NCBI GenBank assembly: GCA_030390025.1
Contig: JASTWF010000335.1
Coordinates: 434,001 to 498,000, forward strand
Reading direction: 5' to 3'
Length of the DNA stretch: 64,000 nt
Origin: Squalus acanthias
Taxonomy: Eukaryota
The translations under genes and the position numbers were made by a program. Position 1 is the first letter of the stretch. Each line of letters starts with the position of its first letter. Below are positions 11,700-37,667 of this stretch, piece after piece. The notes under the pieces were generated by a model. The model worked only from the letters and a program-made list of their open reading frames with translations. It was not told the DNA's origin and did not search any database.

Positions 11700-14600
11700 T
11701 AGGAACACAGGACCAGGAGGAGGCCATTCAGCCCATCGAGCCTGTTACCACAGAAACAGGAGGAGGCCATTCAGCCCTTTGAGCCGGGTTACACAGGAAC
11801 AGGAGGAGGCCCATTCAGCACCTCGAGCCTGTTACACAGGAACAGGAGGAGGCCATTCAGCCCCTCGAGCCTGTTACACAGGAACAGGAGGAGGCCATTC
11901 AGCCCCTCGAGCCTGTTACACAGTAACAGGAGGAGGCCATTCAGCCCACTCGAGTCTGTTACCATAGGAACAGGAGGAGGCCATTCAGCCCCCTCGAGTC
12001 TGTTACCATAGGAACTGGAGGAGGCCCATTCAGCCCCCTCGAGCCTGTTACATAGGAGCAGGAGGAGGCCATTCAGCCCCCTCGAGTCTGTTCCATAGGA
12101 ACAGGAGGAGGCCCATTCAGCCCCTCGAGCCTGTTAACAGGAATAGGAGGAGGCCATTCAGCCCCCTCGAGCCTGTTACACAGGAACAGGAGGAGGCCCA
12201 TTCAGACCCTCGAGCCTGTTACACAGGAACAGGAGGAGGCCCATTCAGCCCCTCGAGCCTGTTACATAGGAACAGGAGGAGGCCATTCAGCACCCTCGAG
12301 CCTGTTACACAGGAACAGCAGGAGGCAATTCAGCTCCCTCGAGCCTGTTACCATAGGAACAGAAGGAGGCCATTCAGCCCCCTCGAGCCTGTTACACAGG
12401 AACAGGAGGAGGTCATTCAGCTCCCTATAGCCTGTTACATAGGAACAGGAGGAGGCCATTCAGCCCCCTCGAGCCTGTTACACAGGAACAGGAGGAGGCC
12501 ATTCAGCCCCCTCGAGCCTGTTACATAGGAACAGGAAGAGGCCCATTCAGCCCCTCGAGCCTGTTACATAGGAACAGGAGGAGGCCCATTCAGCACTCGA
12601 GACTGTCACACAGGAACGGGAGGAGGCTATTCAGCCCTTTTAGCCGGTTACACAGGAACAGTAGGAGGTCATTCAGCCCCCTCGAGCCTGTTACATAGGA
12701 ACAGGAGGAGGCCATTCAGCCTCCTCGAGCCTGTTTCCATAGGAACAGGAGGAGGCCATTCAGCCCCTCGAGCCTGTTACACAGGAACAGGAGGAGGCCA
12801 TTCAGCCCCCTCGAGCCTGTTACACAGGAACAGGAGGAGGCCATTCAGCCCCCTCGAGTCTGTTACACAGGAACAGGAGGAGGCCATTCAGCCCCCTCGA
12901 GCCTGTTACACAGGAACAGGAGGAGGCCATTCAGCCCCCTCGAGCCTGTTACCATAGGAACAGGAGGAGGCCATTCAGCCCCTCGAGCCTGTTAATAAAG
13001 GAACAGGAGGAGGCCATTCAGCCCCCTCGAGCCTGTTACATAGGAACAGGAGGAGGTCATTCAGCCCCTCGAGCCTGTTACATAGGAACAGGAGGAGGCC
13101 ATTCAGCCCCTCGAGTCTGTTACACAGGAACAGCAGGAGGCCATTCGGCCTCTCAAGCCAGTTACCATAGGAACAGGAGGAGGCCATTCAGCCCTTTGAG
13201 CCCGTTACCACAGGAACAGGAGGAGGCCCATTCAGCCCTTTGAGCCCGTTACACAGGAACAGGAGGAGGCCATCCAGCCCCCTCGAGCCTTTTACACAGG
13301 ACATGGAGGAGGCCATTCAGCCCCCTCGTGGCTGTTACACAGGAACAGGAGGAGGCCATTCAGCCCCTCGAGTCTGTTACACAGGAACAGGAGGAGGCCA
13401 TTGAGCCCCCTCGAGCCTGTTACACAGGAACAGGAGGAGGCCATTCAGCCCATTTGAGCCTGTTACACAGGAACAGGAGGAGGCCGTTCAGCTCCTTGAG
13501 TCTGTCACACAGGAATAGGAGGAGGCCCATTCAGCCCCCTCGAGTCTGTTACCATAGGAACAGGATAAGGCCATTCAGCTCCTCGAGACTGTTACACAGG
13601 AACAGGAGGACGCCATTCAGCCCCCTCGAGCCTGTTACGTAGGAACAGGAGGACGCCATTCAGCCCCCTCGAGCCTGTTACACAGGAACAGGAGGAGGCC
13701 CATTCAGCCCCTCGAGCCTGTTACACAGGAACAGGAGGAGGCCATTTAGCCCCCTAAAGCCTGTTACAGAGGAACAGGAGGAGGCCATTCAGCCACTCAA
13801 GCCTGTTACACAGGAACAGGAGGAGGCCATTCAGCCCGCTCGAGCCTGTTACACAGGAACAGGAGGAGGCCATTCAGCCCCCACGAGTCTGTTACACAGG
13901 AACAGGAGGAGGCCATTCAACCCCTCGAGCCTGTTACCACAGGAACAGGAGGAGGCTATTCAGCCCCTCGAGCCTGTTACACAGGAACAGGATGAGGCCA
14001 TTCAGCCCCCACGAGTCTGTTGCACAGGAACAGGAGGAGGCCAATCAGCCCCTTGAGCCTATTTCATAGGAACAGGAGGAGGCCATTCAGTCCCTCAAGC
14101 CTGTTGCACAGGAACAGGAGAAGGCCATTCAGCACCTCAAGCCTCTTACACAGGAACAGGAGTAGTCCATTCAGCACCTCAAGCCTGTTACACAGGAACA
14201 GGAGGAGGCCATTCTGCCCCTCAAGCCTGTTACACACGAACAGGAGGAGGCCATTCAGCACCTCGAGTCTGTTACACAGGAACAGGAGGAAGACATTCAG
14301 CTCCTCGAGCCTGTCACACAGGAACAGGAGGAGGCCATTCAGCTCCTCGAGCCTGTTACATTAGGAACAGGAGGAGGCCATTCAGCTCCTCGAGCCTCTT
14401 ACATTAGCAACAGGAGGAGGCCCATTCCGCCCCCTTGAGTCAGATCCACAGGAACAGAAGGAGGCCATTCAGCCCATTGAACCTGTTACACAGGAACAGG
14501 AGGAGGCAATTCAGCCCCTCGAGTCCGTTACACAGGAACTGGAGGAGCCATTCAGCCCCCTCGAGTCCATTACACAGGAAAAGGAGGAGGCCATTCAGCC

Positions 14601-17600
14601 CCTCAAACCTGTTACACAGAAACAGCAGGAGGCCATTCAGCCCTTCGAGCCTGTTACAGATGAACAGCAGGAGGCCATTCAGCCCCTCAAACCTGTTACA
14701 CAGGAACAGGAGGAGGCCATTCAGCTCCTTGAGCCTGTCACACAGGAATAGGAGGAGGCCATTCAGCTCCTCGAGCCTGTTACACAGGAACAGGAGGAGG
14801 CCATTCAACCCCTCGAGCCTGTTACCACAGGAACAGGAGGAGGCCATTCAGCCCCTGGAGCCTGTTACACAGGAACAGGATGAGGCCATTCAGCCCCCAC
14901 GAGTCTGTTGCACAGGAACAGGAGGAGGCCAATCAGCCCCTTGAGCCTATTTCATAGGAACAGGAGGAGGCCATTCAGTCCCTCAAGCCTGTTACACAGG
15001 AACAGGAGGAGGCCATTCAGCCCCTCAAGCCTGTTACACAGGAACAGGAGGAGGCCATTCAGCCCCTCAAGCCTGTTACACAGGAACAGGAGGAGGCCAT
15101 TCAGCTCCTCGAGCCTGTTACACAGGAACAGGATGAGGCCATTCAGCCCCTCGTGTCTATTACACAGGAACAGGATGAGGCCATTCAGCCCCTCGTGTCT
15201 ATTACACAGGAACAGGAGGAGGCCATTCAGCCCCTCAAGTCTGTTACACAGGAACAGGAGGAGGCCATTCAGCCCTTTGAGCCTGTTACACAGGACAGGA
15301 GGAGGCCATTCAGCCCCTCAAGCCTGTTACACAGGAACAGGAGGAGGCCATTCAGCCCCTCAAGCCTGTTACACAGGAACAGGAGGAGGCCATTCAGCCC
15401 CTCAAGCCTGTTACACAGGAACAGGAGGAGGCCATTCAGCTCCTCGAGCCTGTCACACAGTAATAGGAGGAGGCCATTCAGCTCCTCGAGCCTGTTACAT
15501 TAGGAACAGGAGGAGGCCATTCAGCTCCTCGAGCCTCTTACATTAGCAACAGGAGGAGGCCCATTCCACCCCCTCGAGTCAGATCCACAGAAACAGCAGG
15601 AGGCCATTCAGCCCTTCGAGCCCGTTACACAGGAACAGGAGGAGGCCATTCAGCTCCTCGAGCCTGTCACACAGTAATAGGAGGAGGCCATTCAGCTCCT
15701 CGAGCCTGTTACATTAGGAACAGGAGGAGGCCATTCAGCTCCTCGAGCCTCTTACATTAGCAACAGGAGGAGGCCCATTCCACCCCCTCGAGTCAGATCC
15801 ACAGAAACAGCAGGAGGCCATTCAGCCCCTCGAGCCTGCTACACAGGAACAGGATGAGGCCCATTCAGCCCCTCGAGCCTGTTGCACAGGAACAGGAGGA
15901 GCCCATTCAGCTCCCTTGAGTCCATTACACAGGAGCAGGAGGAGGCCATTCAGCCCCTCGAGCCTGTTGCACAGGAAAAGGAGGAGGCCAATCAGCCCCT
16001 TGAGCCTATTGCATAGGATCAGAAGGAAGGCATTCTGCCCCTCAAGCCTGTTACACAAGAACAGGAGGAGGCCATTCAGCCCCTCAAGCCTTTTACACAG
16101 GAACAGGAGCAGGCCATTCAGCCCCTCAAGCCTGTTACACAGGAACAGGAGGAGGCCATTCAGCCTGCTCGAGCCTGTTACACAGGAACAGGAGGAGGCA
16201 ATTCAGCCCCCACGAGTCTGTTACACAGGAACAGGAGGAGGCATTTCAGCCCCTCGAGTCTGTTATACAGGAACAGGAGGAGGCCATTCGGCCTCTCAAG
16301 CAAGTTACCATAGGAACAGGAGGAGGCCATTCAGCCTCTCGAGCCAGTTACCATAGGAACAGCAGGAGGCCCATTCAGCCCCCTCGAGCCTGTTACACAG
16401 GAACAGGAGGAGGCCATTCAGCCCCTCGAGCCTGTTACACAGGAACAGGAGGAGGCCAATCAGCCCCTTGAGCCTATTGCATAGGAACAGGAGAAGGCCA
16501 TTCAGCACCTCAAGCCTGTTACACAGGAACAGGAGGAGGCCATTCAGCACCTCAAGCCTGTTACATTAGGAACAGGAGGAGGCCATTCAGCTCCTCGAGC
16601 CTGTTACATTAGCAACAGGAGGAGGCCCATTCCGCCCCCTCGAGTCAGATCCACAGGAACAGGAGGAGGCCATTCAGCCAGCTCGAGCCTGTTACACAGG
16701 AACAGGAGGAGGCCATTCAGCCCCCACGAGCCTGTTACACAGGAACAGGAGGAGGCCATTCAGCCCCCTCGAGTCTGTTACACAGGAACAGGAGGAGGCC
16801 ATTCAGCCCCCTCGAGCCTGTTACACAGGAACAGGAGGAGGCCATTCAGCCCCCTCGAGCCTGTTACCATAGGAACAGGAGGAGGCCATTCAGCCCCTCG
16901 AGCCTGTTAATAAAGGAACAGGAGGAGGCCATTCAGCCCCCTCGAGCCTGTTACGTAGGAACAGGAGGACGCCATTCAGCCCCCTCGAGCCTGTTACACA
17001 GGAACAGGAGGAGGCCCATTCAGCCCCTCGAGCCTGTTACACAGGAACAGGAGGAGGCCATTTAGCCCCCTAAAGCCTGTTACAGAGGAACAGGAGGAGG
17101 CCATTCAGCCACTCAAGCCTGTTACACAGGAACAGGAGGAGGCCAAACAGCCCCTCAAGCCTGTTACACAGGAACAGGAGGAGGCCATTCAGCTCCTCGA
17201 GCCTGTCACACAGGAATAGGAGGAGGCCATTCAGCTCCTCGAGCCTGTTACATTAGGAACAGGAGGAGGCCATTCAAATCTTTGAGCCTGTTGCACAGGA
17301 ACAGGAGGAGGCCATTCAGCCCGCTCGAGCCTGTTACACAGGAACAGGAGGAGGCCATTCAGCCCCCACGAGTCTGTTACACAGGAACAGGAGGAGGCCA
17401 TTCAACCCCTCGAGCCTGTTACCACAGGAACAGGAGGAGGCTATTCAGCCCCTCGAGCCTGTTACACAGGAACAGGATGAGGCCATTCAGCCCCCACGAG
17501 TCTGTTGCACAGGAACAGGAGGAGGCCAATCAGCCCCTTGAGCCTATTTCATAGGAACAGGAGGAGGCCATTCAGTCCCTCAAGCCTGTTGCACAGGAAC

Positions 17601-20600
17601 AGGAGAAGGCCATTCAGCACCTCAAGCCTCTTACACAGGAACAGGAGTAGTCCATTCAGCACCTCAAGCCTGTTACACAGGAACAGGAGGAGGCCATTCT
17701 GCCCCTCAAGCCTGTTACACACGAACAGGAGGAGGCCATTCAGCACCTCGAGTCTGTTACACAGGAACAGGAGGAAGACATTCAGCTCCTCGAGCCTGTC
17801 ACACAGGAACAGGAGGAGGCCATTCAGCTCCTCGAGCCTGTTACATTAGGAACAGGAGGAGGCCATTCAGCTCCTCGAGCCTCTTACATTAGCAACAGGA
17901 GGAGGCCCATTCCGCCCCCTTGAGTCAGATCCACAGGAACAGAAGGAGGCCATTCAGCCCATTGAACCTGTTACACAGGAACAGGAGGAGGCAATTCAGC
18001 CCCTCGAGTCCGTTACACAGGAACTGGAGGAGCCATTCAGCCCCCTCGAGTCCATTACACAGGAAAAGGAGGAGGCCATTCAGCCCCTCAAACCTGTTAC
18101 ACAGAAACAGCAGGAGGCCATTCAGCCCTTCGAGCCTGTTACAGATGAACAGCAGGAGGCCATTCAGCCCCTCAAACCTGTTACACAGGAACAGGAGGAG
18201 GCCATTCAGCTCCTTGAGCCTGTCACACAGGAATAGGAGGAGGCCATTCAGCTCCTCGAGCCTGTTACACAGGAACAGGAGGAGGCCATTCAACCCCTCG
18301 AGCCTGTTACCACAGGAACAGGAGGAGGCCATTCAGCCCCTGGAGCCTGTTACACAGGAACAGGATGAGGCCATTCAGCCCCCACGAGTCTGTTGCACAG
18401 GAACAGGAGGAGGCCAATCAGCCCCTTGAGCCTATTTCATAGGAACAGGAGGAGGCCATTCAGTCCCTCAAGCCTGTTACACAGGAACAGGAGGAGGCCA
18501 TTCAGCCCCTCAAGCCTGTTACACAGGAACAGGAGGAGGCCATTCAGCCCCTCAAGCCTGTTACACAGGAACAGGAGGAGGCCATTCAGCTCCTCGAGCC
18601 TGTTACACAGGAACAGGATGAGGCCATTCAGCCCCTCGTGTCTATTACACAGGAACAGGATGAGGCCATTCAGCCCCTCGTGTCTATTACACAGGAACAG
18701 GAGGAGGCCATTCAGCCCCTCAAGTCTGTTACACAGGAACAGGAGGAGGCCATTCAGCCCTTTGAGCCTGTTACACAGGACAGGAGGAGGCCATTCAGCC
18801 CCTCAAGCCTGTTACACAGGAACAGGAGGAGGCCATTCAGCCCCTCAAGCCTGTTACACAGGAACAGGAGGAGGCCATTCAGCCCCTCAAGCCTGTTACA
18901 CAGGAACAGGAGGAGGCCATTCAGCTCCTCGAGCCTGTCACACAGTAATAGGAGGAGGCCATTCAGCTCCTCGAGCCTGTTACATTAGGAACAGGAGGAG
19001 GCCATTCAGCTCCTCGAGCCTCTTACATTAGCAACAGGAGGAGGCCCATTCCACCCCCTCGAGTCAGATCCACAGAAACAGCAGGAGGCCATTCAGCCCT
19101 TCGAGCCCGTTACACAGGAACAGGAGGAGGCCATTCAGCTCCTCGAGCCTGTCACACAGTAATAGGAGGAGGCCATTCAGCTCCTCGAGCCTGTTACATT
19201 AGGAACAGGAGGAGGCCATTCAGCTCCTCGAGCCTCTTACATTAGCAACAGGAGGAGGCCCATTCCACCCCCTCGAGTCAGATCCACAGAAACAGCAGGA
19301 GGCCATTCAGCCCCTCGAGCCTGCTACACAGGAACAGGATGAGGCCCATTCAGCCCCTCGAGCCTGTTGCACAGGAACAGGAGGAGCCCATTCAGCTCCC
19401 TTGAGTCCATTACACAGGAGCAGGAGGAGGCCATTCAGCCCCTCGAGCCTGTTGCACAGGAAAAGGAGGAGGCCAATCAGCCCCTTGAGCCTATTGCATA
19501 GGATCAGAAGGAAGGCATTCTGCCCCTCAAGCCTGTTACACAAGAACAGGAGGAGGCCATTCAGCCCCTCAAGCCTTTTACACAGGAACAGGAGCAGGCC
19601 ATTCAGCCCCTCAAGCCTGTTACACAGGAACAGGAGGAGGCCATTCAGCCTGCTCGAGCCTGTTACACAGGAACAGGAGGAGGCAATTCAGCCCCCACGA
19701 GTCTGTTACACAGGAACAGGAGGAGGCATTTCAGCCCCTCGAGTCTGTTATACAGGAACAGGAGGAGGCCATTCGGCCTCTCAAGCAAGTTACCATAGGA
19801 ACAGGAGGAGGCCATTCAGCCTCTCGAGCCAGTTACCATAGGAACAGCAGGAGGCCCATTCAGCCCCCTCGAGCCTGTTACACAGGAACAGGAGGAGGCC
19901 ATTCAGCCCCTCGAGCCTGTTACACAGGAACAGGAGGAGGCCAATCAGCCCCTTGAGCCTATTGCATAGGAACAGGAGAAGGCCATTCAGCACCTCAAGC
20001 CTGTTACACAGGAACAGGAGGAGGCCATTCAGCACCTCAAGCCTGTTACATTAGGAACAGGAGGAGGCCATTCAGCTCCTCGAGCCTGTTACATTAGCAA
20101 CAGGAGGAGGCCCATTCCGCCCCCTCGAGTCAGATCCACAGGAACAGGAGGAGGCCATTCAGCCAGCTCGAGCCTGTTACACAGGAACAGGAGGAGGCCA
20201 TTCAGCCCCCACGAGCCTGTTACACAGGAACAGGAGGAGGCCATTCAGCCCCCTCGAGTCTGTTACACAGGAACAGGAGGAGGCCATTCAGCCCCCTCGA
20301 GCCTGTTACACAGGAACAGGAGGAGGCCATTCAGCCCCCTCGAGCCTGTTACCATAGGAACAGGAGGAGGCCATTCAGCCCCTCGAGCCTGTTAATAAAG
20401 GAACAGGAGGAGGCCATTCAGCCCCCTCGAGCCTGTTACATAGGAACAGGAGGAGGTCATTCAGCCCCTCGAGCCTGTTACATAGGAACAGGAGGAGGCC
20501 ATTCAGCCCCTCGAGTCTGTTACACAGGAACAGCAGGAGGCCATTCGGCCTCTCAAGCCAGTTACCATAGGAACAGGAGGAGGCCATTCAGCCCTTTGAG

Positions 20601-23600
20601 CCCGTTACCACAGGAACAGGAGGAGGCCCATTCAGCCCTTTGAGCCCGTTACACAGGAACAGGAGGAGGCCATTCAGCCCCCTCGAGCCTTTTACACAGG
20701 ACATGGAGGAGGCCATTCAGCCCCCTCGTGGCTGTTACACAGGAACAGGAGGAGGCCATTCAGCCCCTCGAGTCTGTTACACAGGAACAGGAGGAGGCCA
20801 TTGAGCCCCCTCGAGCCTGTTACACAGGAACAGGAGGAGGCCATTCAGCCCATTTGAGCCTGTTACACAGGAACAGGAGGAGGCCGTTCAGCTCCTTGAG
20901 TCTGTCACACAGGAATAGGAGGAGGCCCATTCAGCCCCCTCGAGTCTGTTACCATAGGAACAGGATAAGGCCATTCAGCTCCTCGAGACTGTTACACAGG
21001 AACAGGAGGACGCCATTCAGCCCCCTCGAGCCTGTTACATAGGAACAGGAGGACGCCATTCAGCCCCCTCGAGCCTGTTACACAGGAACAGGAGGAGGCC
21101 CATTCAGCCCCTCGAGCCTGTTACACAGGAACAGGAGGAGGCCATTTAGCCCCCTAAAGCCTGTTACAGAGGAACAGGAGGAGGCCATTCAGCCACTCAA
21201 GCCTGTTACACAGGAACAGGAGGAGGCCAAACAGCCCCTCAAGCCTGTTACACAGGAACAGGAGGAGGCCATTCAGCTCCTCGAGCCTGTCACACAGGAA
21301 TAGGAGGAGGCCATTCAGCTCCTCGAGCCTGTTACATTAGGAACAGGAGGAGGCCATTCAAATCTTTGAGCCTGTTGCACAGGAACAGGAGGAGGCCATT
21401 CAGCCCGCTCGAGCCTGTTACACAGGAACAGGAGGAGGCCATTCAGCCCCCACGAGTCTGTTACACAGGAACAGGAGGAGGCCATTCAACCCCTCGAGCC
21501 TGTTACCACAGGAACAGGAGGAGGCTATTCAGCCCCTCGAGCCTGTTACACAGGAACAGGATGAGGCCATTCAGCCCCCACGAGTCTGTTGCACAGGAAC
21601 AGGAGGAGGCCAATCAGCCCCTTGAGCCTATTTCATAGGAACAGGAGGAGGCCATTCAGTCCCTCAAGCCTGTTGCACAGGAACAGGAGAAGGCCATTCA
21701 GCACCTCAAGCCTCTTACACAGGAACAGGAGTAGTCCATTCAGCACCTCAAGCCTGTTACACAGGAACAGGAGGAGGCCATTCTGCCCCTCAAGCCTGTT
21801 ACACACGAACAGGAGGAGGCCATTCAGCACCTCGAGTCTGTTACACAGGAACAGGAGGAAGACATTCAGCTCCTCGAGCCTGTCACAGAGGAACAGGAGG
21901 AGGCCATTCAGCTCCTCGAGCCTGTTACATTAGGAACAGGAGGAGGCCATTCAGCTCCTCGAGCCTCTTACATTAGCAACAGGAGGAGGCCCATTCCGCC
22001 CCCTCGAGTCAGATCCACAGGAACAGAAGGAGGCCATTCAGCCCATTGAACCTGTTACACAGGAACAGGAGGAGGCAATTCAGCCCCTCGAGTCCGTTAC
22101 ACAGGAACTGGAGGAGCCATTCAGCCCCCTCGAGTCCATTACACAGGAAAAGGAGGAGGCCATTCAGCCCCTCAAACCTGTTACACAGGAACAGGAGGAG
22201 GCCATTCAGCACCTCAAGCCTGTTACAGATGAACAGCAGGAGGCCATTCAGCCCCTCAAACCTGTTACACAGGAACAGGAGGAGGCCATTCAGCTCCTTG
22301 AGCCTGTCACACAGGAATAGGAGGAGGCCATTCAGCTCCTCGAGCCTGTTACACAGGAACAGGAGGAGGCCATTCAACCCCTCGAGCCTGTTACCACAGG
22401 AACAGGAGGAGGCCATTCAGCCCCTGGAGCCTGTTACACAGGAACAGGATGAGGCCATTCAGCCCCCACGAGTCTGTTGCACAGGAACAGGAGGAGGCCA
22501 ATCAGCCCCTTGAGCCTATTTCATAGGAACAGGAGGAGGCCATTCAGTCCCTCAAGCCTGTTACACAGGAACAGGAGGAGGCCATTCAGCCCCTCAAGCC
22601 TGTTACACAGGAACAGGAGGAGGCCATTCAGCCCCTCAAGCCTGTTACACAGGAACAGGAGGAGGCCATTCAGCTCCTCGAGCCTGTTACACAGGAACAG
22701 GATGAGGCCATTCAGCCCCTCGTGTCTATTACACAGGAACAGGATGAGGCCATTCAGCCCCTCGTGTCTATTACACAGGAACAGGAGGAGGCCATTCAGC
22801 CCCTCAAGTCTGTTACACAGGAACAGGAGGAGGCCATTCAGCCCTTTGAGCCTGTTACACAGGACAGGAGGAGGCCATTCAGCCCCTCAAGCCTGTTACA
22901 CAGGAACAGGAGGAGGCCATTCAGCCCCTCAAGCCTGTTACACAGGAACAGGAGGAGGCCATTCAGCCCCTCAAGCCTGTTACACAGGAACAGGAGGAGG
23001 CCATTCAGCTCCTCGAGCCTGTCACACAGTAATAGGAGGAGGCCATTCAGCTCCTCGAGCCTGTTACATTAGGAACAGGAGGAGGCCATTCAGCTCCTCG
23101 AGCCTCTTACATTAGCAACAGGAGGAGGCCCATTCCGCCCCCTCGAGTCAGATCCACAGAAACAGCAGGAGGCCATTCAGCCCTTCGAGCCCGTTACACA
23201 GGAACAGGAGGAGGCCATTCAGCCCCTCGAGCCTGCTACACAGGAACAGGATGAGGCCCATTCAGCCCCTCGAGCCTGTTGCACAGGAACAGGAGGAGCC
23301 CATTCAGCTCCCTCGAGTCCATTACACAGGAGCAGGAGGAGGCCATTCAGCCCCTCGAGCCTGTTGCACAGGAACAGGAGGAGGCCATTCAGCCCCTCAA
23401 GCCTGTTACACAAGAACAGGAGGAGGCCATTCAGCCCCTCAAGCCTTTTACACAGGAACAGGAGCAGGCCATTCAGCCCCTCAAGCCTGTTACACAGGAA
23501 CAGGAGGAGGCCATTCAGCCTGCTCGAGCCTGTTACACAGGAACAGGAGGAGGCAATTCAGCCCCCACGAGTCTGTTACACAGGAACAGGAGGAGGCATT

Positions 23601-26600: not shown

Positions 26601-29600
26601 GGCCATTCAGCCCCACGAGTCTGTTGCACAGGAACAGGAGGAGGCCATTCAGCCCCTTGAGCCTATTTCATAGGAACAGGAGGAGGCCATTCAGTCCCTC
26701 AAACCTGTTACACAGGAACAGGATAAGGCCATTCAGCACCACAAGCCTGTTACACAGGAACAGGAGTAGACCATTCAGCACCTCAAGCCTGTTACACAGG
26801 AACAGGAGGAGGCCATTCAGCCCCTAAAATCCGTTACACAGAAACAGGAGGAGGCCATTCAGCCCTTTGAGCCCATTACACAGGAAAAGGAGGAGGCCAT
26901 TCAGCCCCTCGAGCCTGTTACACAGGAACAGGAGGAGGCCATTTAGCCCCCTAAAGCCTGTTACAGAGGAACAGGAGGAGGCCATTCAGCCCCTCAAGCC
27001 TGTTACACAGGAACAGGAGGAGGCCATTCAGCCCCTCAAGCCTGTTACACAGGAACAGGAGGAGGCCATTCAGCTCCTCGAGCCTGTAACACAGGAATAG
27101 GGGGAGGCCATTCAGCTCCTCGAGCCTGTTACATTAGGAACAGGAGGAGGCCATTCAAATCTTTAAGCCTGATGCACAGGAACAGGAGGAGGCCATTCAG
27201 CCTCTCGAGCCATTTACCATAGGAACAGGAGGAGGCATTTCAGCCCCTCGAGTCTGTTACACAGGAACAGGAGTAGGCCATTCAACACCTCAAGCCTGTT
27301 ACACAGGAACAGGAGGAGGCCATTCTGCACCTCAAGCCTGTTACACACGAACAGGAGGAGGCCATTCAGCCCCTAAAACCTGTTACACAGGAACAGGAGG
27401 AGGCCATTCAGCCCCCTTGAGCCTGTTACACAGGAACAGGAGGAGGCCATTCAGCCCCTCGAGTCCGTTACACAGGAACAGGAGGAGGCCATTCAGCCCC
27501 CTCGAGTCCATTACACAGGAACAGGAGGAGGCCATTCAGCCCCTTGAGCCTGTTACACAGGAACAGGAGGAGGCCATTCAGCCCCTCGAGTCCGTTACAC
27601 AGGAACAGGAGGAGGCCATTCAGCCCCCTCGAGTCCATTACACAGGAACAGGAGTAGGCCATTCAGCCCCCTCGAGTCCATTACACAGGAACAGGAGGAG
27701 GCCATTCAGCCCCTCGAGTCCATTACACAGGAACAGGAGGAGGCCATTCAGCCCCCTCGAGTCCATTACACAGGAACAGGAGGAGGCCATTCAGCCCCTC
27801 GAGCCTGTTACACAGGAACAGGAGGAGGCCATTCAGCTCCTGGAGCCTGTCACACAGGAATAGGAGGAGGCCATTCAGTTCCTCGAGCCTGTCACACAGG
27901 AACAGGAGGAGGCCATTCAGCCCTTCGGGCCTGTTACATTAGCAACAGGAGGAGGCCCATTCCGCCCCCTCAAGTCAGATCCACAGGAACAGGAGGAGGT
28001 CATTCAGCCCTATGAGCCCGTTACACAGGAACAGGAGGAGCCCATCCAGCCTCTCAAGCCTGCTACACAGAAACAGGAGGAGGCCATTCAGCCCTTCGAG
28101 CCCGTTACACAGGAACAGGAGGAGGCCATTCAGCCCCTCGAGCCTGTTGCACAGGAACAGGAGGAGGTCATTCAGCCCCCTAAAGCCTGTTACACAGGAA
28201 CAGGAGGAGGCCATTCAGCCCCTCGAGCCTGCTACACAGGAACAGGATGAGGCCCATTCAGCCCCTCGAGCCTGTTGCACAGGAACAGGAGGAGCCCATT
28301 CAGCCCCTCGAGTCCATTACACAGGAACAGGAGGAGGCCATTCAGCCCCTCGAGCCTGTTGCACAGGAAAAGGAGGAGGCCAATCAGCCCCTTGAGCCTA
28401 TTGCATAGGATCAGAAGGAAGGCACTCTGCCCCTCAAGCCTGTTACACAAGAACAGGAGGAGGCCATTCAGCCCCTCAAGCCTTTTACACAGGAACAGTA
28501 GGAGGCCCATTCATCGCCCTCGAGTCTGTTACACAGGAACAGGAGCAGGCCATTCAGCCCCTCAAGCCTGTTACACAGGAACAGGAGGAGGCCATTCAGC
28601 TCCTCGAGTTGTTACATTAGGAACAGGAGGAGGCCATTCAAATCTTTGAGCCTGTTGCACAGGAACAGGAGGAGGCATTTCAGGCCCTCGAGTCTGTTAC
28701 ACAGGAATAGGAGGAGACCATTCAGCCCCTCGAGTCTGTTACACAGGAACAGGAGGAGGCATTTCAGCCCCTCGAGTCTGTTACACAGGAATAGGAGGAG
28801 GCCATTCAGCCCCTCGAGTCTGTTATACAGGAACAGGAGGAGGCCATTCGGCCTCTCAAGCCAGTTACCATAGGAACAGGAGGAGGCCATTCAGCCTCTC
28901 GAGCCAGTTACCATAGGAACAGGAGGAGGCCCATTCAGCCCCCTCGAGCCTGCTACACAGGAACAGGAGGAGGCCATTCAGCCCCTCGAGCCTGTTACAC
29001 AGGAACAGGATGAGGCCATTCAGCCCCACGAGTCTGTTACACAGGAACAGGAGGAGGCCAATCAGCCCCTTGAGCCTATTGCATAGGAACAGGAGAAGGC
29101 CATTCAGCACCTCAAGCCTGTTACACAGGAACAGGAGGAGGCCATTCAGCCCCTCAAGCCTGTTACACAGGAACAGGAGGAGGCCATTCAGCACCTCAAG
29201 CCTGTTACACACAAACAGGAGGAGGCCATTCAGCCCCATCGAGTCTGTTACAAAGGAACAGGAGGAGGCCATTCAGCTCCTCGAGCCTGTCACACAGTAA
29301 TAGGAGGAGGCCATTCAGCCCCTCGAGCCTGTTACATTAGCAACAGGAGGAGGCCCATTCCGCCCCCTCGAGTCAGATCCACAGGAACAGAAGGAGGTCA
29401 TTCAGCCCATTGAACCTGTTACACAGGAACAGGAGTAGGCCATTCAGCCTCTCGAGACTGTTACACAGGAACAGGGGGAGGCCATTCAGCCCCTCGAGCA
29501 TGTTGCACAGGAACAGGAGGAGGCCAATCAGCCCCTTGAGCCTATTGCATAGGAACAGGAGGAGGCCATTCAACTCTTTGAGCCTGTTGCACAGGAACAG

Positions 29601-32600
29601 GAGTAGGCCATTCAGCCTCTCGAGACTGTTACACAGGAACAGGAGGAGGCCTTTCAGCCAGCTCGAGCCTGTTACACAGGAACAGGAGGAGGCCATTCAG
29701 CCCCCTCGAGCCTGTTACACAGGAACAGGAGGAGGCCATTCAGCCCCTCGAGCCTATCATACAGGAATAGGACGAGGCCATTTATTCCTCGAACCTGTTA
29801 CACAGGAAAAGGAGGAGGCCCATTCAGCCCTCGAGACTGTCACACAGGAACAGGATGAGGCCATTCAGCCTCACGAGTCTGTTGCACAGGAACAGGAGGA
29901 GGCCAATCAGCCCCTTGAGCCTATTGCATAGGAACAGTAGGAGGCCATTCAGCCCCTCATGCCTGTTACAAAGGAACAGGAGGAGGCCCATTAAGCCCCT
30001 CAAGCCTGTTACACAGGAACAGGAGGAGGCCATTCAGCTCCTCGAGCCTGTCACACAGGAACAGGAGGAGGCCATTCAATCTTTGAGCCTGTTGCACAGG
30101 AACAGGAGGAGGCCATTCAGCCCCTACGAGTCTGTTACACAGGAACAGGAGGCGGCATTTCAGCCCCTCGAGTCTGTTACACAGGAACAGGAGGAGGCCA
30201 TTCAGCCCGCTCGGACCTGTTACACAGGAACAGGAGGAGGCCATTCAGCCCCCACGAGTCTGTTACACAGGAACAAGAGGAGGCCATTCAGCCCTCGAGC
30301 CTGTTACACAGGAACAGGAGGAGGCCCATTCAGCCTCTCGAGCCAGTTACCATAGGAACAGGAGGAGGCCATTCAGCCCCCACGAATCTGTTACACAGGA
30401 ACAGGAGGAGGCCATTCAGCCTCTCAAGCCATTTACCATAGGAACAGGATGAGGCCATTCAGTCTCTCGAGCCAGTTACCATAGGAACAGGAGGAGGCCT
30501 TTCAGCCCTTTGAGCCTGTTACACAGGAACAGGAGCAGGCCATTCAGCCCCCTCGAGCCTGTTACACAGGAACAGCTGGAGGCCATTCAGCCCGCTCGAG
30601 CCTGTTACCATAGGAACAGGAGGAGGCCATTCAGCCCCTCGAGTCTGTCACACAGGAACAGGAGGAGGCCATTCAGCCCCTCGAGTCTGTTACACAGGAA
30701 CAGGAGGAGGCCCATTCAGCCCCCTCGAGCCTATCACACAGGAATAGGAAGAGGCCATTTATTCCTCGAACCTGTTACACAGGAAAAGGAGGAGGCCCAT
30801 TCAGCCCTCGAGACTGTCACACAGGAACAGGATGAGGCCATTCAGCCCCACGAGTCTGTTGCACAGGAACAGGAGGAGGCCAATCAGCTCCTTGAGCCTA
30901 TTGCATAGGAACAGGAGGAGGCCATTCAACTCTTTGAGCCTGTTGCACAGGAACAGGAGGAGGCCATTCAGCCAGCTCGAGCCTGTTACACAGGAACAGG
31001 AGGAGGCCATTCAGCCCTTTGAGCCTGTTACACAGGAACAGGAGGAGGCCATTCAGCCCCCTCGAGCCTGTTACACAGGAACAGGAAGAGGCCATTCAGC
31101 CCCCTCGAGCCTGTTACACAGGAACAGGAGGAGGCCATTCAGCCCCTCCAGCCTATCATACAGGAATAGGACGAGGCCATTTATTCCTCGAACCTGTTAC
31201 ACAGGAAAAGGAGGAGGCCCATTCAGCCCTCGAGACTGTCACACAGGAACAGGATGAGGCCATTCAGCCCCACGAGTCTGTTGCACAGGAACAGGAGGAG
31301 GCCAATCAGCTCCTTGAGCCTATTGCATAGGAACAGGAGGAGGCCATTCAGCCCCTCGTGTCTATTACACAGGAACAGGAGGAGGCCATTCAGCCACTCA
31401 AGTCTGTTACACAGGAACAGGAGGAGGCCAGTCAGCCCTTTGAGCCTGTTACACAGGAACAGGAGGAGGCCATTCAGCCCCTCGAGCCTGTTACACAGGA
31501 ACAGGAAGAGGCCATTCAGCCAGCTCGAGCCTGTTACACAGGAACAGGAGGAGGCCATTCAGCCCCTCGAGCCTATCATACAGGAATAGGACGAGGCCAT
31601 TTATTCCTCGAACCTGTTACACAGGAAAAGGAGGAGGCCCATTCAGCCCTCGAGACTGTCACACAGGAACAGGATGAGGCCATTCAGCCTCACGAGTCTG
31701 TTGCACAGGAACAGGAGGAGGCCAATCAGCCCCTTGAGCCTATCGCATAGGAACAGTAGGAGGCCATTCAGCCCCTCATGCCTGTTACAAAGGAACAGGA
31801 GGAGGCCCATTAAGCCCCTCAAGCCTGTTACACAGGAACAGGAGGAGGCCATTCAGCTCCTCGAGCCTGTCACACAGGAACAGGAGGAGGCCATTCAATC
31901 TTTGAGCCTGTTGCACAGGAACAGGAGGAGGCCATTCAGCCCCTACGAGTCTGTTACACAGGAACAGGAGGCGGCATTTCAGCCCCTCGAGTCTGTTACA
32001 CAGGAACAGGAGGAGGCCATTCAGCCCGCTCGGACCTGTTACACAGGAACAGGAGGAGGCCATTCAGCCCCCACGAGTCTGTTACACAGGAACAGGAGGA
32101 GGCCATTCAGCCCTCGAGCCTGTTACACAGGAACAGGAGGAGGCCCATTCAGCCTCTCGAGCCAGTTACCATAGGAACAGGAGGAGGCCATTCAGCCCCC
32201 ACGAATCTGTTACACAGGAACAGGAGGAGGCCATTCAGCCTCTCAAGCCATTTACCATAGGAACAGGATGAGGCCATTCAGTCTCTCGAGCCAGTTACCA
32301 TAGGAACAGGAGGAGGCCTTTCAGCCCTTTGAGCCTGTTACACAGGAACAGGAGCAGGCCATTCAGCCCCCTCGAGCCTGTTACACAGGAACAGCTGGAG
32401 GCCATTCAGCCCGCTCGAGCCTGTTACCATAGGAACAGGAGCAGGCCATTCAGCCCCCTCGAGCCTGTTACACAGGAACAGGAGGAGGCCATTCAGCCCC
32501 TCGAGTCTGTCACACAGGAACAGGAGGAGGCCATTCAGCCCCTCGAGTCTGTTACACAGGAACAGGAGGAGGCCCATTCAGCCCCCTCGAGCCTATCACA

Positions 32601-35600
32601 CAGGAATAGGAAGAGGCCATTTATTCCACGAACCTGTTACACAGGAAAAGGAGATGGCCCATTCAGCCCTCGAGAGTGTCACACAGGAACAGGATGAGGC
32701 CATTCAGCTCCCTCGAGTCCGTTACATAGGAACAGGAGGAAGGCATTCTGCCCCTCAAGCCTGTTCCACAGGAACAGGAGGAGGCCATTCAGCCCCTCAA
32801 GCCTGTTACGCAGAAACAGGAGGAGGCATTTTAGCCCCTCAAGCCAGTTACCATAGGAACAGGAGGAGGCCCATTCAGCTCCTCGAGCCTGTTACATAGG
32901 AACAGCAGGAGGCCATTCAGCCCCCTCTAGCCTGTTACACAGGAACAGGAGGGGGCCTTTCAGCCCCACGAGTCTGTTGCACAGGAACAGGAGGAGGCCA
33001 ATCAGCCCCTTGAGCCTATTACATAGGAACAGGAGGAGGCCATTCAGCCTCTCAAGCCTGTTACACAGGAACAGGAGGAGGCCATTCAGCACCTCAAGCC
33101 TGTTGCATAGTAACAGGAGGAGGCCATTCAGCCCCTCGAGCCTGTTAAACAGGAACAGGAGAAGGCCATTCAGCCCCTCGAGCCTGTTACACAGGAACAG
33201 GAGGAGGCCATTCAGCCCCTCAAGCCTGTTACACATGAACAGGAGGAGGCCATTCAGCTCCTCGAGCCTGTCACACAGGAACAGGATGAGGCATTTTAGC
33301 CCCTCAAGCCAGTTACCATAGGAACAGGAGGAGGCCATTCAGCCTCTTGAGCCTGTTACATAGCAACAGGAGGAGGCCATTCAGCCCCCTCAAGCCTGTT
33401 ACACAGGAACAGGGGGAGGCCATTCAGCCCCTCAAGCCTGTTACACAGGAACAGGAGGAGGCCATTCAGCACCTCAAGCCTGTTACACAGGAACAGGAGG
33501 AGGCCCATTCAGCTCCTCGTGCCTGTTACACAGGAACAGGAGGAGGCCTTTTAGCCCTTTGAGCCTGTTACACAGGAACAGGAGCAAGCCATTCAGACCC
33601 CTCGAGCCTGTTACACAGGAACAGGGGGAGGCCATTCAGCCCCCTCGAGCCTGTTACCATAGGAACAGGAGGAGGCCATTCAGCCCTTTGAGCCTGTTAC
33701 ACAGGAACAGGAGCAGGCCATTCAGCCCCCTCGAGCCTGTTACACAGGAAAAGGAGGAGGCCATTCAGCCCCCTCGAGCCTATCACACAGGAATAGGAGG
33801 AGGCCATTTATTCCTCGAACCTGTTACACTGGAAAAGGAGGAGGCCCATTCAGCCCTCGAGACTGTCACACAGGAACAGGATGAATGAGGCCATTCAGCC
33901 CCACGAGTCTGTTGCACAGGAACAGGAGGAGGCCGTTCAGCCCCCTCGAGCCTGTTACACAGGAACAGGAGGAGGCCATTCAGCCCCTCAAGCCTGTTAC
34001 ACAGAAACAGGAGGAGGCCATTCAGCCCCTCGAGCCTGTTACACAGGAACAGGAGGAGGCCATTCAGCTCCTCGAGCCTGTCACACAGGTATCATAGAAT
34101 CATAGAAGATAGGAGCAGGAGTAGGCCATTCGGCCCCTCTAGCCTGCTCCGCCATTCAATGCGATCATGGCTGATCATCCAAATTCAGTACCCTATCCCT
34201 GTTTTCTCCCCATATCCCTTGATCCCTTTAGCCTTAAGAAATATATCCAACTCCATCTTGAATCTATTTAATGAATTGGCCTCTACTGCCTTCTGTGGCA
34301 GAGAATTCCACAGGTTCACCTCTCTCTGGGTGAAGAAATTCCTCCTCATTTCTGTCCTAAATGGCTTACCCCTTATCCTTAGACTGTGACCCCTGGTTCT
34401 GGACTCCCCGACCATCGGGAACACCCTTCCTACATCTAGTTTGTCCTGTCCTGTCAGAATTTTATAAGTTTCAATGAGATCCCCTCTCATTCTTCTAAAC
34501 TCCAGCGAGGATAAGCCCAATTGACCCAATCTCTCCTCATACGTCATTCCTGCCATCCCAGGTATCAGCCTTGTGAATCTTCGCTGCACTCCCTCCATGG
34601 CAAGAACATCCTTCCTCAGATAAGGCGACCAAAACTGCACACAGTACTCAAGGTGTGGTCTCACCAAGGCCCTGTACAACTGCAGCAAGACATCCTTGTT
34701 CCTGTACTCAAACCCTCTCGCTATGAAGGCCAACATACCATTTGCCTTCTTCCCCGCCTGCTGCACCTGCATGCTTACCTTCAGCGACTGGTGCACAAGG
34801 ACACCCAGGTCTCGGTGCACTTCCCCTTCTCCCAATCTATTGCCATTCAGATAATAATCTGCCTTTCTGTTTTTGACACCAAAGTGGATAACCTCGCATT
34901 TATCCACGTTATATTGCATCTGCCTCGCTTCTGCCCAATCACCCAACCTGTCCAAATCATCCTGGAGTTTCTCTGCATCCTCCTCGCAGCACACACGCCC
35001 ACCCAGTTTTGTGTCGTCTGCAAACTTGGAGATATTACATCTAGTTCCCTTGTCTAGATCATTAATATATATTGTGAATAGCTGGGGTCCAAGGACCGAT
35101 CCCTGCGGAACCCCACTAGTCACTGCCTGCCACTCGGAAAAAGACCCATTTATTGCAACTCTTTGCTTTCTGTTTGCCAACCAGTTCTCTATCCAAGTCA
35201 ATACCTTGCCCCCAATCTCATGTGCCTTAACTTTACACGCTAATCTCTTATGCAGGACCTTATCAAAAGCCTTTTGAAAGTCCAAATACACCACATCCAC
35301 TGGTTCTCCCTTATCTATTTTACCAGTTACATCCTCAAAAAATTCCAATAGATTAGTCAAGCATGATTTACCTTTTGTAAATCCATGTTGACTTTGTCCA
35401 ATCCTATCACTGTTTTTCAAGTGCTCAGCTATTACATCTATTACAATAGGAGGAGGCCATTCAGCTCCTCGAGCCTCTTACATTAGGAACTGGAGGAGGT
35501 CATTCAGCCCCTCGAGTCTGTTACACAGGAACAGGAGGAGGCCAATCAGCCCCTGGAGCCTGTCACACAGGAATAGGAGGAGGCCATTCAGCCCTTTGAG

Positions 35601-36285
35601 CCTGTTACACAGGAACAGGAGGAGGCCCATTAAGCACCCCTCAAGTCTGTTACATAGGAACAGGAGGAGGCCATTCAGCCCTTTGAGCCTGTTACACAGG
35701 AACAGGAGGAGGCCCATTCAGCCCCCTCGAGCCTGTTACACAGGAACAGGAGGAGGCCATTCAGCCCCCTTGAGCCTGTTACACAGGAACAGGAGGAGGC
35801 CATTCATCCCCCTCGAGCCTGTTACACAGGAGCAGGAGGAGGCCATTCAGCCCCCTCAAGCCTGTTACACAGGAACAGGAGGAGGCCATTCAGCCCTTTG
35901 AGCCTGTTACACAGGAACAGGAGGAGGCCATTCAGCCCCTCGAGCCTGTTACATAGGACCAGGAGGAGGCCATTCAGCCCTTTGAGCCTGTTACACAGGA
36001 ACAGGAGGAGGCCATTCAGCCCCCTCGAGCCTGTTACACAGGAGCAGGAGGAGGCCATTCAGCCCTCGAACCTGTTACACAGGAACAGGAGTAGGCCATT
36101 CAGCCCTTTGAGCCTGTTACACAGGAACAGGAGGAGGCCATTCAGCCCCCTCGAGCCTGTTACACAGGAGCAGGAGGAGGCCACTCAGCCCTCGAGCCTG
36201 TTACACAGGAACAGGAGGAGGCCATTCAGCCCCCTCGAGCCTGTTACACAGGAACAGGAGGAGGCCACTCAGCCCCTAAAGCCTG
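11700..36285. repeat. 42(-44)-bp satellite array derived from the CR1 3' UTR, roughly 540 monomers, with higher-order repeats
   Basis: Unit acacaggaacaggaggaggccattcagcccctcgagcctgtt; aligns to the reverse complement of CR1 tails (ggagcaggagtaggccattcggcccctcgagcctgct). Confidence 0.98.
34090..35444 (-). mobile_element. 5'-truncated CR1 LINE inserted in the 42-bp satellite; open RT frame of 411 aa
   Basis: ORF 34185-35420 with [18 protein letters not shown] and FADD; tail atcatagaatcatagaa; splits a monomer at cacacagg|aatagg. Confidence 0.97.
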
Positions 36286-36358
36286 TTCCGCCATTCAATT
36301 AGATCATGGTCGATCTGTATCTTAACACCATTTACCTGCCTTAGTTCCTGAACCCTTA
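36286..36358 (-). mobile_element. CR1 3' UTR remnant contiguous with the last satellite monomer
   Basis: gcctgttccgccattcaattagatcatggtcgatct matches the CR1 tail gcctgctccgccattcaat..gatcatggctgatc. Confidence 0.85.
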
Positions 36359-36552
36359 AGGGCAGAGTCCTTGGCCCAACCATCTTCAGCTGCTTCATCA
36401 ATGACCTTCTCTCCAACATAAGGTCAGAAATGGGGATGTTCGCTGATGACTGCACAGTGTTCAGCGCCATTCAGAACTCCTCAGATAATGAAGCAGTCCA
36501 TGCCCGCATGCAACAAGACCTGGACGATGTTCAGGGTTGGGCTGATAAGTGG
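36359..36552 (+). mobile_element. CR1-group RT fragment (different subfamily)
   Basis: Encodes GRVLGPTIFSCFINDL...GMFADDCTVF. Confidence 0.8.
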
Positions 36553-37136
36553 TCGAGAGTTTTCCAGAGTTCCGCGACCCTTTGTGTGAGCAGAAGTGCT
36601 TCCTGACATCACCCCTGAACGGCCTGGCTCTAATTTTAAGGTTATGCCCCCTTGTTCTGAACTCCAACCCCCCAACCTGAGGAAATAGTTTCTCTCTATC
36701 TCCACTATCGAATCCTTTAATCATCTTAAACACCTCGATTAGACCAACCCTTAGGGCTGGATTTTCATTGACCCGTGGAGGCGGGTTTGGAGGTGTGTGG
36801 GGGGTTAAAATTGCGAAAACTGGCGGGCGGGCACAAGTCCGCCTCCATCCCGCCTCCACGCAATTTTCATTAAATCGTGTCTGCTGGTCCCGACTGTGTC
36901 CCGCCTTTAAGAGGCGGGATAGGCTGTTAAGGCCCTTAACAAGCACTAAATTGGCTCTATAATGCCATTTTGAAAGGCCTTTGTGATTTTAACCCTTGTT
37001 GTACGTGAAGCGCGCCTGTTCTGAACCACGATTGCGAAACCTGGCAGGAGCACAAGTGGATAGCTGACTATCAGTGAGTGGCTGGCTGGGCATCTGGGAG
37101 TAGTGGAGCAAAAAAAATTCTCTCTGTCTCTCTCTG

Positions 37137-37168
<32 letters not shown>

Positions 37169-37480: not shown

Positions 37481-37667
37481 GACTGAAAGCGGATGGAGTG
37501 TAATTCATAGTAAAACTTTCACATACGCCTCGGCGAGACTGTCGGCTCAATCAGCACAGGGACTCTTAACGATAGCCAAATACTGCGGATGCTGGAAATC
37601 CGAAATAACAGCAGAAAACGCTGGAAAAACTCAGCAATCCAGGCAGCATCCGCGGAGAGAGAAACAG

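What the first reader, a model, noticed from the sequence alone, without database searches (positions are those of the whole stretch)
11700..36358. ~24-kb satellite made from the CR1 3'-terminal stem-loop, with the parent element still attached
Seen: on the minus strand the 42-bp monomer reads aacaggctcgaggggctgaatggcctcctcctgttcctgtgt. This matches the CR1 tail gcaggctcgaggggccgaatggcctactcctgctcctat (5395-5432), including the ggc(c/t)gaatggcc hairpin. The last monomer runs straight into ordinary CR1 3' UTR (36286-36358). Established: CR1-clade LINEs and their partner SINEs depend on a conserved 3' stem-loop recognised by the RT. Inference: the array is ~540 tandem copies of a LINE RT-recognition signal. 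If transcribed it could act as an RT decoy, a source of anti-CR1 small RNAs, or a substrate for CR1-mediated spread of the satellite.
Basis: partly seen in the sequence, partly recalled or inferred. Interest (0 to 1): 0.8.

Follow-up and report, generated by a model that had tools for sequence, protein, structure and literature searches.

The report
Satellite grown from CR1 tail hairpin
A 23-kb run of 547 copies of a 42-base unit, copied from the hairpin-shaped tail of a dead jumping gene that is still attached to it, sits in a likely shark genome; the copies are not measurably protecting the hairpin, so this is likely one more ordinary transposon-derived satellite and not a working decoy.

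Summary
Origin confirmed, function not supported. The array has 547 units of 42 bp (11705-34089 and 35448-36287). It is not continuous: a 1.36-kb CR1 of another subfamily sits inside one unit. The unit is the 3' stem-loop plus one terminal octamer of a 5'-truncated, twice-interrupted CR1 copy that is still attached (36288-37478), and the array ends in that family's octamer. The source is this subfamily (39/42), not the 5395-5432 tail (36/42). Stems are not more conserved than unpaired positions (P 0.17, 0.47). The inner hairpin is borderline (P 0.055, 0.09). Pair-keeping changes are not enriched, and the whole stem-loop is predicted in 2% of units in array context. Public runs show the unit in tandem in two organisms, far more abundant than this array explains, with no enrichment in one putative RNA run. 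A parent-attached 37-bp array from a non-hairpin L2 region lies in the same window, and the scan noted other LINE-derived satellites on other DNA of this genome (unchecked). New: the array ends about 85 bp before the acceptor of a B3GALT5-like coding exon, on the same strand. Verdict: new member of a known kind.

The parts
11705..34082 (-). Main array, 527 full 42-bp units (hairpin plus one octamer of the parent CR1 tail), with internal block duplications of 23-74 units
11700..11704 (-). Distal end: the array stops in a partial further octamer (TTCCTA), the parent family's natural terminus, then unique flank
   Evidence: octamer ends of dispersed copies seen as loose ends
34083..34089 (-). Last 7 nt of the unit split by the CR1 insertion
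34090..35447 (-). 5'-truncated CR1 of a sister subfamily inserted into one unit; open 430-codon RT frame, hairpin and ATTCTATG octamer; no TSD seen
   Evidence: (RVT_1 E 3e-24)
35448..36287 (-). Proximal array: 19 full units plus the first 32 nt of the split unit; 36246-36287 is the parent's own tail unit
36288..36357 (-). Parent CR1 3' UTR, continuous with the first unit
   Evidence: the same UTR joins units in 181 contigs of X1 and 331 of X8 (shown rows)
36358..36553 (+). Inverted RT-domain fragment of another LINE interrupting the parent
   Evidence: RVT_1 E 5.4e-7
36554..36756 (-). Parent CR1 ORF2 C-terminal region
   Evidence: 45% over 58 aa to the inserted CR1 ORF2, E 1.3e-14; E 1.0 to the window's L2
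36754..37414 (.). MITE with terminal inverted repeats and a TTA duplication inside the parent ORF2 (Harbinger-like; label recalled)
   Evidence: second copy at 39271-40009, 95-96% identical
37415..37478 (-). 5'-most parent ORF2 piece and truncation point
   Evidence: 55% over 20 aa, collinear with the 36554-36756 piece; no TSD seen
10670..11620 (-). Neighbour: intact B3GALT5-like coding exon (311 aa) with a splice-acceptor-like site at about 11620, some 85 bp downstream of the array end on the same strand
   Evidence: (Galactosyl_T E 7e-56)

Best explanation
The array is 547 tandem copies of the last 42 bases (stem-loop plus one octamer) of a 5'-truncated CR1-type LINE copy that is still attached; it likely began as a short tail duplication and then grew at the DNA level, and it is likely a neutral member of a genome-wide satellite family. 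Shown: the unit's identity and boundaries, the attached parent, the octamer at the far end, block duplications of 1-3 kb, a CR1 sitting inside one unit, and no significant constraint on the stems. Inferred: the first duplication was templated by the tail itself. The unit ends at the element's natural 3' end and starts at the base of the stem, with no flanking direct repeat, which fits the reverse transcriptase re-priming at the RNA end after copying the hairpin, or a template switch between the stem arms (about 55% for a structure- or RT-driven seed). Unequal exchange or replication slippage then produced the kilobase blocks. Any RNA would most likely be intronic read-through of the adjacent B3GALT5-like gene.
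For: Parent attached and collinear. Majority unit 39/42 to the parent's tail unit against 32-36/42 to 7 other tails. Block duplications of 3,145 bp with 1 mismatch, 2,159 bp with 9, 986 bp with 2 and 975 bp with 6, which a single reverse-transcription event would not make. Stems against unpaired positions P 0.17 and 0.47; 240 pair-breaking against 91 pair-keeping variants, 2 of them double-sided, in 219 distinct patterns; 166 of 546 units keep all 11 pairs. Pair-keeping events 43.6 of 165 against 51.4 expected; mean folding energy -13.4 against -14.1 +/- 0.2 in random-mutation controls. In contrast, the aligned CR1 tails keep 96.5% of paired cells (9 rows, one of them a monomer). Tandem joints of the unit occur in runs of organisms A and D, and summed depth in X1 is about 2,400 times what this array would give. 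A 37-bp array attached to its L2 parent, from an ORF2 region that is not the 3' hairpin, lies at 62306-63192. Precedent in print: PMC10702118, PMC6947457, PMC9659126.
Against: The inner hairpin (unit positions 13-26) is slightly less variable than the rest (one-sided P 0.055 and 0.092, two of five tests, uncorrected) and is exact in 234 of 546 units. A pentamer of the majority unit is predicted to keep the inner stem (P 0.85-0.97 for 4 of 5 pairs). Unit-like contigs with tandem joints are abundant in the putative RNA run X15. Event counts come from a spanning tree over units that recombine, so the test has limited power. The folding control had no indels. The seeding step is not observed. The summed depths are, by the tool's own warning, no copy number. 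The 3,145-bp block may be an assembly artefact.
Confidence: 0.8

Rival explanations
1. A CR1 master with an already multimeric tail retrotransposed and seeded many loci, each of which then expanded, so the LINE machinery dispersed the satellite. This differs from the best explanation only in how arrays got to many places.
For: The locus has the anatomy of one retrotransposed copy: 5'-truncated body, units, terminal octamer, no TSD. The first, parent-attached unit already has G at unit position 39, the state of 424 of 546 units here and of about nine tenths of summed depth in X1 (A 9%) and X8 (A 13%). The listed dispersed ends at 11838 show A. One X15 contig has 504 further letters followed by 1.6 units (record 15; those letters were not shown).
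Against: No second parent-attached array was read directly, because no genome is held. Gene conversion, segmental duplication or independent seeding from a G-type subfamily would give the same depth pattern. The B3GALT5-like region is itself multi-copy in X1, so segmental duplication is a live route.
Confidence: 0.3
2. The array is a transcribed, selected decoy for CR1 reverse transcriptase or a source of anti-CR1 small RNAs.
For: It lies on the sense strand upstream of a B3GALT5-like acceptor, so it could be read as pre-mRNA. Unit-like and tandem contigs occur in X15. In eel UnaL2 the 3' stem-loop and repeat suffice for mobilisation in trans (PMC1636434 passages). The inner hairpin shows borderline conservation.
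Against: No stem constraint or compensatory change. The commonest variant after the CpG site, G6>A in 115 of 546 units, breaks an outer pair. Both stems are predicted in 2% of 309 units in context, whereas the intact 5-kb tail pairs at 0.85-1.0. The ratio of parent-type to sister-type depth is 5.6 in X15 and 8.7 in DNA run X1, so there is no enrichment. X15's level fits about 0.12x DNA carry-over, and X15 has no contig over 11480-11679. A sister CR1 with an open RT frame inserted into the array itself. Units are sense to CR1, so silencing would need antisense transcripts.
Confidence: 0.07
3. A satellite block from elsewhere was copied into this CR1 tail by homology-driven repair or gene conversion, so the attached element is a recipient and not the birthplace.
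For: The family appears abundant elsewhere. The first unit shares the satellite-type G39. Identical tail sequence would favour ectopic exchange.
Against: Both ends are exactly in register with an intact CR1 3' end. Proximal units are no more diverged than the rest (mean pairwise differences 4.3 among proximal units, 6.1 among distal ones). An exchange at the tail would also leave ends in register, so this is not excluded.
Confidence: 0.15
4. The array length is largely an assembly artefact.
For: One 3,145-bp block differs from its copy by 1 base.
Against: 296 groups remain after collapsing duplicated blocks. Other blocks differ by 2-9 bases. Tandem joints exist in independent runs.
Confidence: 0.05

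Closest known systems
SINE-derived satellites (sSat1-3) of squamates, Vassetzky et al. 2023, PMC10702118 (parts 1-4 of 5 of the text read)
   Same: Tandem units copied from part of a retroposon, a terminal unit that continues into the parent, arrays of hundreds to over 1,200 units, and some units that include the LINE-derived 3' region.
   Different: Those units are 67-290 nt and come from SINEs. Here the parent is an autonomous-type CR1 fragment and the 42-nt unit is confined to the 3' stem-loop plus one octamer.
Chicken HinfI (SCR1) repeat and CR1-C-derived Cen satellites; common cetacean satellite from the L1 3' end (seen only as table entries and passages in reviews PMC6947457 and PMC9659126)
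   Same: Satellites built from LINE 3' regions, including CR1 3' UTR.
   Different: As summarised in the reviews, HinfI contains 3' UTR plus part of ORF2. None is described there as the bare RT-recognition hairpin with the parent attached. Primary papers not seen.
CR1 3' hairpin plus octamer microsatellite (PMC8665684, PMC4316615, passages) and the eel UnaL2 stem-loop with template slippage (PMC1636434, passages)
   Same: Two-part tail of stem-loop plus short terminal repeat. Slippage at the terminal repeat is a model for how a tail could be copied twice.
   Different: For CR1 those papers call RT recognition suggested or hypothesised, while the experiments are on L2-clade UnaL2. Known slippage repeats a 5-nt unit, not a 42-nt unit containing the hairpin. 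The parent family's octamer is TTCCTATG, not ATTCTRTG.
Elasmobranch HER1 LINE / HE1 SINE pair (Ogiwara 1999; seen only as a table row and citation in PMC3747384)
   Same: Shark and ray LINE and SINE sharing a 3' tail.
   Different: Not compared by sequence here, so the parent's Repbase or Dfam family name is undetermined.

Membership tests
CR1-clade LINE (parent element) | ORF2 with APE endonuclease and RT | tested here: inconclusive
   The parent keeps only about 85 codons of the ORF2 C-terminus, homologous (E 1.3e-14) to the sister subfamily. That subfamily's copy at 2704-5460 has endonuclease and RVT_1 domains.
CR1-clade LINE (parent element) | 3' UTR stem-loop | tested here: met
   Predicted for the parent and 3 sister tails, z -2.1 to -3.6. 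96.5% of cells paired over 9 rows; one G-C to A-U double change, a single event, weak.
CR1-clade LINE (parent element) | Terminal octamer microsatellite | tested here: met
   TTCCT(A/G)TG at the array end and repeated at dispersed ends. The inserted sister copy has ATTCTATG, the motif given in PMC8665684.
CR1-clade LINE (parent element) | RT-domain phylogeny inside canonical CR1, not L2, Rex1 or Zenon | not tested
   No reference set was available. The parent fragment matches the sister CR1 and not the window's L2 fragment (E 1.0). The CR1 and L2 labels rest on recalled motifs.
Retroposon-derived satellite DNA | Unit homologous to part of a retroposon | tested here: met
Retroposon-derived satellite DNA | Long head-to-tail array whose terminal unit continues into the parent | tested here: met
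   547 units, with the parent UTR and ORF2 attached
Retroposon-derived satellite DNA | Multi-locus family with shared variants | tested here: inconclusive
   Tandem joints in X1, X8 and X15, about 2,400-fold excess depth and shared G39. No second array was read and depth is no copy number.
Retroposon-derived satellite DNA | Heterochromatic or subtelomeric location | not testable with these tools
   No genome held. The array is next to an intact gene exon.
CR1-dependent SINE | tRNA- or 5S-derived Pol III head upstream of the LINE tail | tested here: not met
   The sequence upstream of the array is CR1 UTR and ORF2. Rfam gives 0 hits in the window.
Functional RNA decoy or small-RNA source | Selective conservation of the recognised structure | tested here: not met
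   (inner hairpin borderline, P 0.055-0.09)
Functional RNA decoy or small-RNA source | Specific transcription | tested here: inconclusive
   One putative RNA run as unstranded contigs; no enrichment over DNA proportions.
Functional RNA decoy or small-RNA source | piRNA or siRNA production, ORF2p binding | not testable with these tools
   No small-RNA run was laid; binding needs bench work.

The most novel reading that the evidence does not exclude
A shark CR1 subfamily acquired a tail in which its own RT-recognition hairpin plus octamer was reiterated by the reverse transcriptase. Such multimer-tailed copies retrotransposed and planted satellite seeds across the genome, which grew into a major satellite family shared by several species: a satellite seeded and dispersed by the enzyme whose recognition signal it is made of.
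Probability: 0.25. Interest if true: 0.62.

Novelty: new member of a known kind. Interest (0 to 1): 0.3.

Why it matters
Satellites arising from pieces of LINEs and SINEs are well documented, so the basic finding is an extra, unusually clean example: birthplace anatomy, unit boundaries that match a functional RNA element, and a nested insertion that gives relative order. It would matter more if a genome census showed that the unit was made and spread by reverse transcription, because that would give a direct RNA-based route for seeding satellites at many loci, a step usually left to ectopic recombination. The decoy idea would be striking, but the sequence evidence runs against it. Practically, it flags an apparently abundant shark repeat that repeat libraries may label as CR1 and not as satellite.

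Tried and rejected
Own-genome search: no genome is held, so the census of other arrays was not possible. Metagenome scans: 0 hits for a 26-base pattern. A 19-base pattern gave 6 hits, none extending beyond 23 bases, single and without CR1 context, judged chance. Protein search with the translated array: 3 unnamed JGI proteins among 8,000 scored candidates, which carry the same repeat but give no taxon; none among 6,623 longer candidates. Raw-read run X22 gave 9 laid reads of 10 million, none tandem, and is uninformative. A megablast for long blocks printed nothing; blocks were taken. ORFs inside the array are a by-product of a 42-nt unit and were rejected as genes. The array as a preferred CR1 landing site was rejected: one insertion in 23 kb, while 7 other copies of that tail type lie outside it in the window. 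Origin by flanking 5-10-bp direct repeats (model summarised in PMC6947457) is not supported, because no such repeat flanks the unit. The PDB search with the inserted ORF2 gave only weak R2 hits. The sequence look-up in earlier findings gave 0 windows and the near look-up. Paper searches for this shark repeat listed no description by title or abstract start; passages of PMC10620051, PMC11406177 and PMC13343379 did not describe it. Supplements and repeat libraries were not examined and may hold it.
Full report
Observation. Tandem Repeats Finder reports a 42-bp array at 11705-34089 (527.2 copies) and 35448-36287 (19.8 copies). A wrap-around alignment splits these into 546 full units and one unit cut in two: 547 units, 23.2 kb, 263 distinct sequences of 546, about 86% mean pairwise identity. 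Its match to CR1 tails is not chance: best local score 57 against the non-array window, against mean 23.6 and maximum 30 in 30 shuffles. A 1,358-bp 5'-truncated CR1 of a sister subfamily (93.7% identical to 4095-5449, open RT frame) lies at 34090-35447 inside one unit, in the same orientation, with no target-site duplication seen.

The parent. On the minus strand the element reads: ORF2 piece 37478-37415, a MITE with a TTA duplication (36754-37414), ORF2 C-terminus 36756-36554, an inverted RT fragment of another LINE (36358-36553), 3' UTR 36357-36288, then the units. The two ORF2 pieces are collinear with residues 310-385 of the inserted CR1's ORF2 (55% over 20 aa; 45% over 58 aa, E 1.3e-14) and do not match the window's L2 fragment. 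At the far end the array stops in a partial further octamer before unique flank. In public runs the same 3' UTR joins a unit in 79+102 contigs of X1, 123+208 of X8 and 19 of X15. Hundreds of contigs end in repeated TTCCTATG octamers with unrelated flanks (420+413 in X1; 608+714+247+157 in X8; 20 of 410 rows shown). So the parent is a dispersed family, and the unit is its stem-loop, minus two G at the stem base, plus one octamer. The whole array sits inside the 3' end of one dead copy. The names CR1, L2, Penelope and Harbinger rest on Pfam domains plus motifs I recall; no RT tree was built. The organism is likely a shark: the 16 best hits of the neighbouring gene are from sharks and the 28 best from cartilaginous fishes.

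Is the hairpin real in the element? The parent and three sister tails fold into an 8-bp outer and 4-5-bp inner stem (z -2.1 to -3.6). Over 9 aligned rows (8 tails and one monomer) 96.5% of cells pair, with one G-C to A-U double change that is a single event. This fits the CR1 hairpin-plus-octamer tail, which PMC8665684 and PMC4316615 (passages) describe as a suggested or hypothesised RT recognition site. The experiments I saw are for eel UnaL2, where stem-loop and terminal repeat are both needed and slippage occurs at the repeat (PMC1636434, passages).

Is it protected in the array? Not measurably. After collapsing duplicated blocks (296 groups, 219 distinct patterns), stems against unpaired positions give P 0.17 by spanning-tree events and P 0.47 by frequency, with base-stratified permutation and the CpG pair left out. 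The inner stem alone gives P 0.14. Inner stem plus loop gives P 0.092 and 0.055, the only hint of constraint, uncorrected for five tests. Variants break pairs 240 times and keep them 91 times, 2 of these on both sides. 166 of 546 units keep all 11 pairs, 304 the inner five, and 234 the exact inner hairpin. Pair-keeping events are 43.6 of 165 against 51.4 expected (z -1.6), and real units fold no better than randomly mutated ones (-13.4 against -14.1 +/- 0.2 kcal/mol; controls lacked indels). In ten-unit context the inner stem has probability above 0.5 in 19% of 309 units, the outer in 3% and both in 2%. An ideal pentamer keeps the inner stem but loses the outer one, while the intact 5-kb tail keeps both. 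The test has limited power because units recombine.

How it grew. Blocks of 74, 51, 23 and 23 units are duplicated: 3,145 bp with 1 mismatch, 2,159 bp with 9, 986 bp with 2 and 975 bp with 6. That is DNA-level expansion, some of it very recent, or for the first block possibly an assembly error. The seed is inferred. The unit ends at the element's natural end and starts at the stem base, and no short direct repeat flanks it, so the flanking-repeat model summarised in PMC6947457 (passages) does not fit. Re-priming of the RT at the RNA end after copying the hairpin, or a template switch between stem arms, does fit; the unit junction itself is a small inverted repeat. On this view the hairpin explains where the unit starts without implying that it is useful.

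Elsewhere. 20 of 24 listed runs hold words of 36040-36760, 11 of them half or more; organisms A-E hold 0.46-0.61 in their DNA or unlabelled runs. I laid 4 of the 24 on 11300-11875. X1 (organism A) has a 110-base contig identical to the unique flank at depth 11.9, so A is the same or a very close species. Its summed depth on the unit is about 1.6e7, some 2,400 times what this array would give. The tool warns that this is no copy number; I take only that the unit is abundant beyond this locus. Tandem joints occur in X1, X8 (organism D, which lacks the flank at 88% likeness) and X15 (15 of 51 rows shown). The A form at unit position 39, seen at the listed dispersed ends, is 9% of depth in X1, 13% in X8 and 6% in X15, while 424 of 546 units here and the first unit have G. 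This suggests one satellite type shared across loci and species. Whether it spread by retrotransposition of a multimer-tailed master, by conversion or by segmental duplication could not be decided without a genome.

Transcription. An intact B3GALT5-like coding exon lies at 10670-11605 on the minus strand, with an acceptor-like site at about 11620, some 85 bp beyond the array end. The array is therefore likely intronic and in sense orientation; upstream exons were not found. X15, whose RNA status is a guess, has unit-like and tandem contigs but none over 11480-11679, and only a paralog of the exon (14 differences in 165). Its parent-type to sister-type ratio (5.6) is below that of DNA (8.7), and its level equals about 0.12x DNA carry-over. 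Transcription is neither shown nor excluded, and small RNA was not examined.

Context and precedent. In the same window a 37-bp array (62306-63192) is attached to an L2 ORF2 fragment, with single-copy versions of the unit at 7227-7272 and 46058-46103. Parent-attached arrays thus also arise from a region that is not the RT signal. Earlier scan notes describe 49-, 51-, 54- and 28-bp LINE-derived satellites on other pieces of this genome; I did not check them and do not count them as evidence. In print, squamate SINE-derived satellites have parent-extended terminal units and up to over 1,200 units (PMC10702118, parts 1-4 of 5 read). Reviews list chicken HinfI and Cen satellites from CR1 and the cetacean satellite from L1 (PMC6947457, PMC9659126, passages; primary papers not seen). 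HER1/HE1 was seen only as a table row (PMC3747384). Searches and passages of PMC10620051, PMC11406177 and PMC13343379 gave no description of this unit. Supplements and repeat databases were not seen and may hold it.

Verdict. A real, cleanly traceable CR1-tail-derived satellite and a new member of a known kind. The decoy or small-RNA reading is unlikely (about 7%). RT-driven seeding and dispersal is the open, testable possibility (about 25%). Interest 0.3.

Noticed in passing
window 10670-11620 (-): Intact single-exon B3GALT5-like CDS. Summed depth of about 70-1,150 against about 12 for unique flank in X1, with several variant contigs, suggests a multi-copy gene family. One 94-base contig with 9 differences crosses the flank-array junction, so a paralog or allele may carry the array too.
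   Followed up: partly
window 62306-63420: 37-bp array (24 copies) attached to an L2 ORF2 fragment from which its unit derives; at its other end it abuts a CR1 cut just before its hairpin (61884-62307).
   Followed up: partly
window 49227-61263: 12-kb 67-bp array interrupted twice by GIY-YIG-containing (Penelope-like) pieces, about 53607-55563 with an inverted duplication and about 56310-57456; source of the unit not found in the window.
   Followed up: no
window about 5845-8000 and about 44840-47218: 88-bp arrays (8.6 and 5.6 copies) each joined to the same L2 fragment, in inverted orientation. It looks like an inverted segmental duplication with a 522-bp insertion in the second copy.
   Followed up: partly
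window 36754-37414 and 39271-40009: Two 95-96% identical MITE copies with terminal inverted repeats, the first with a TTA duplication, and an internal (TC)n tract of differing length.
   Followed up: partly
window 13808-16952 against 17293-20437: 3,145-bp block duplicated with one mismatch: a very recent event or an assembly artefact.
   Followed up: partly
window 36358-36553 (+): An inverted RT fragment replaces part of the parent CR1 between ORF2 and 3' UTR without a visible duplication, possibly a repair patch.
   Followed up: no
window 37600-38600: Several short direct and inverted copies of a 110-170-bp sequence, not identified.
   Followed up: no
window 676-1220: 24-bp purine-rich minisatellite (23 copies); no source found in the window.
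   Followed up: no
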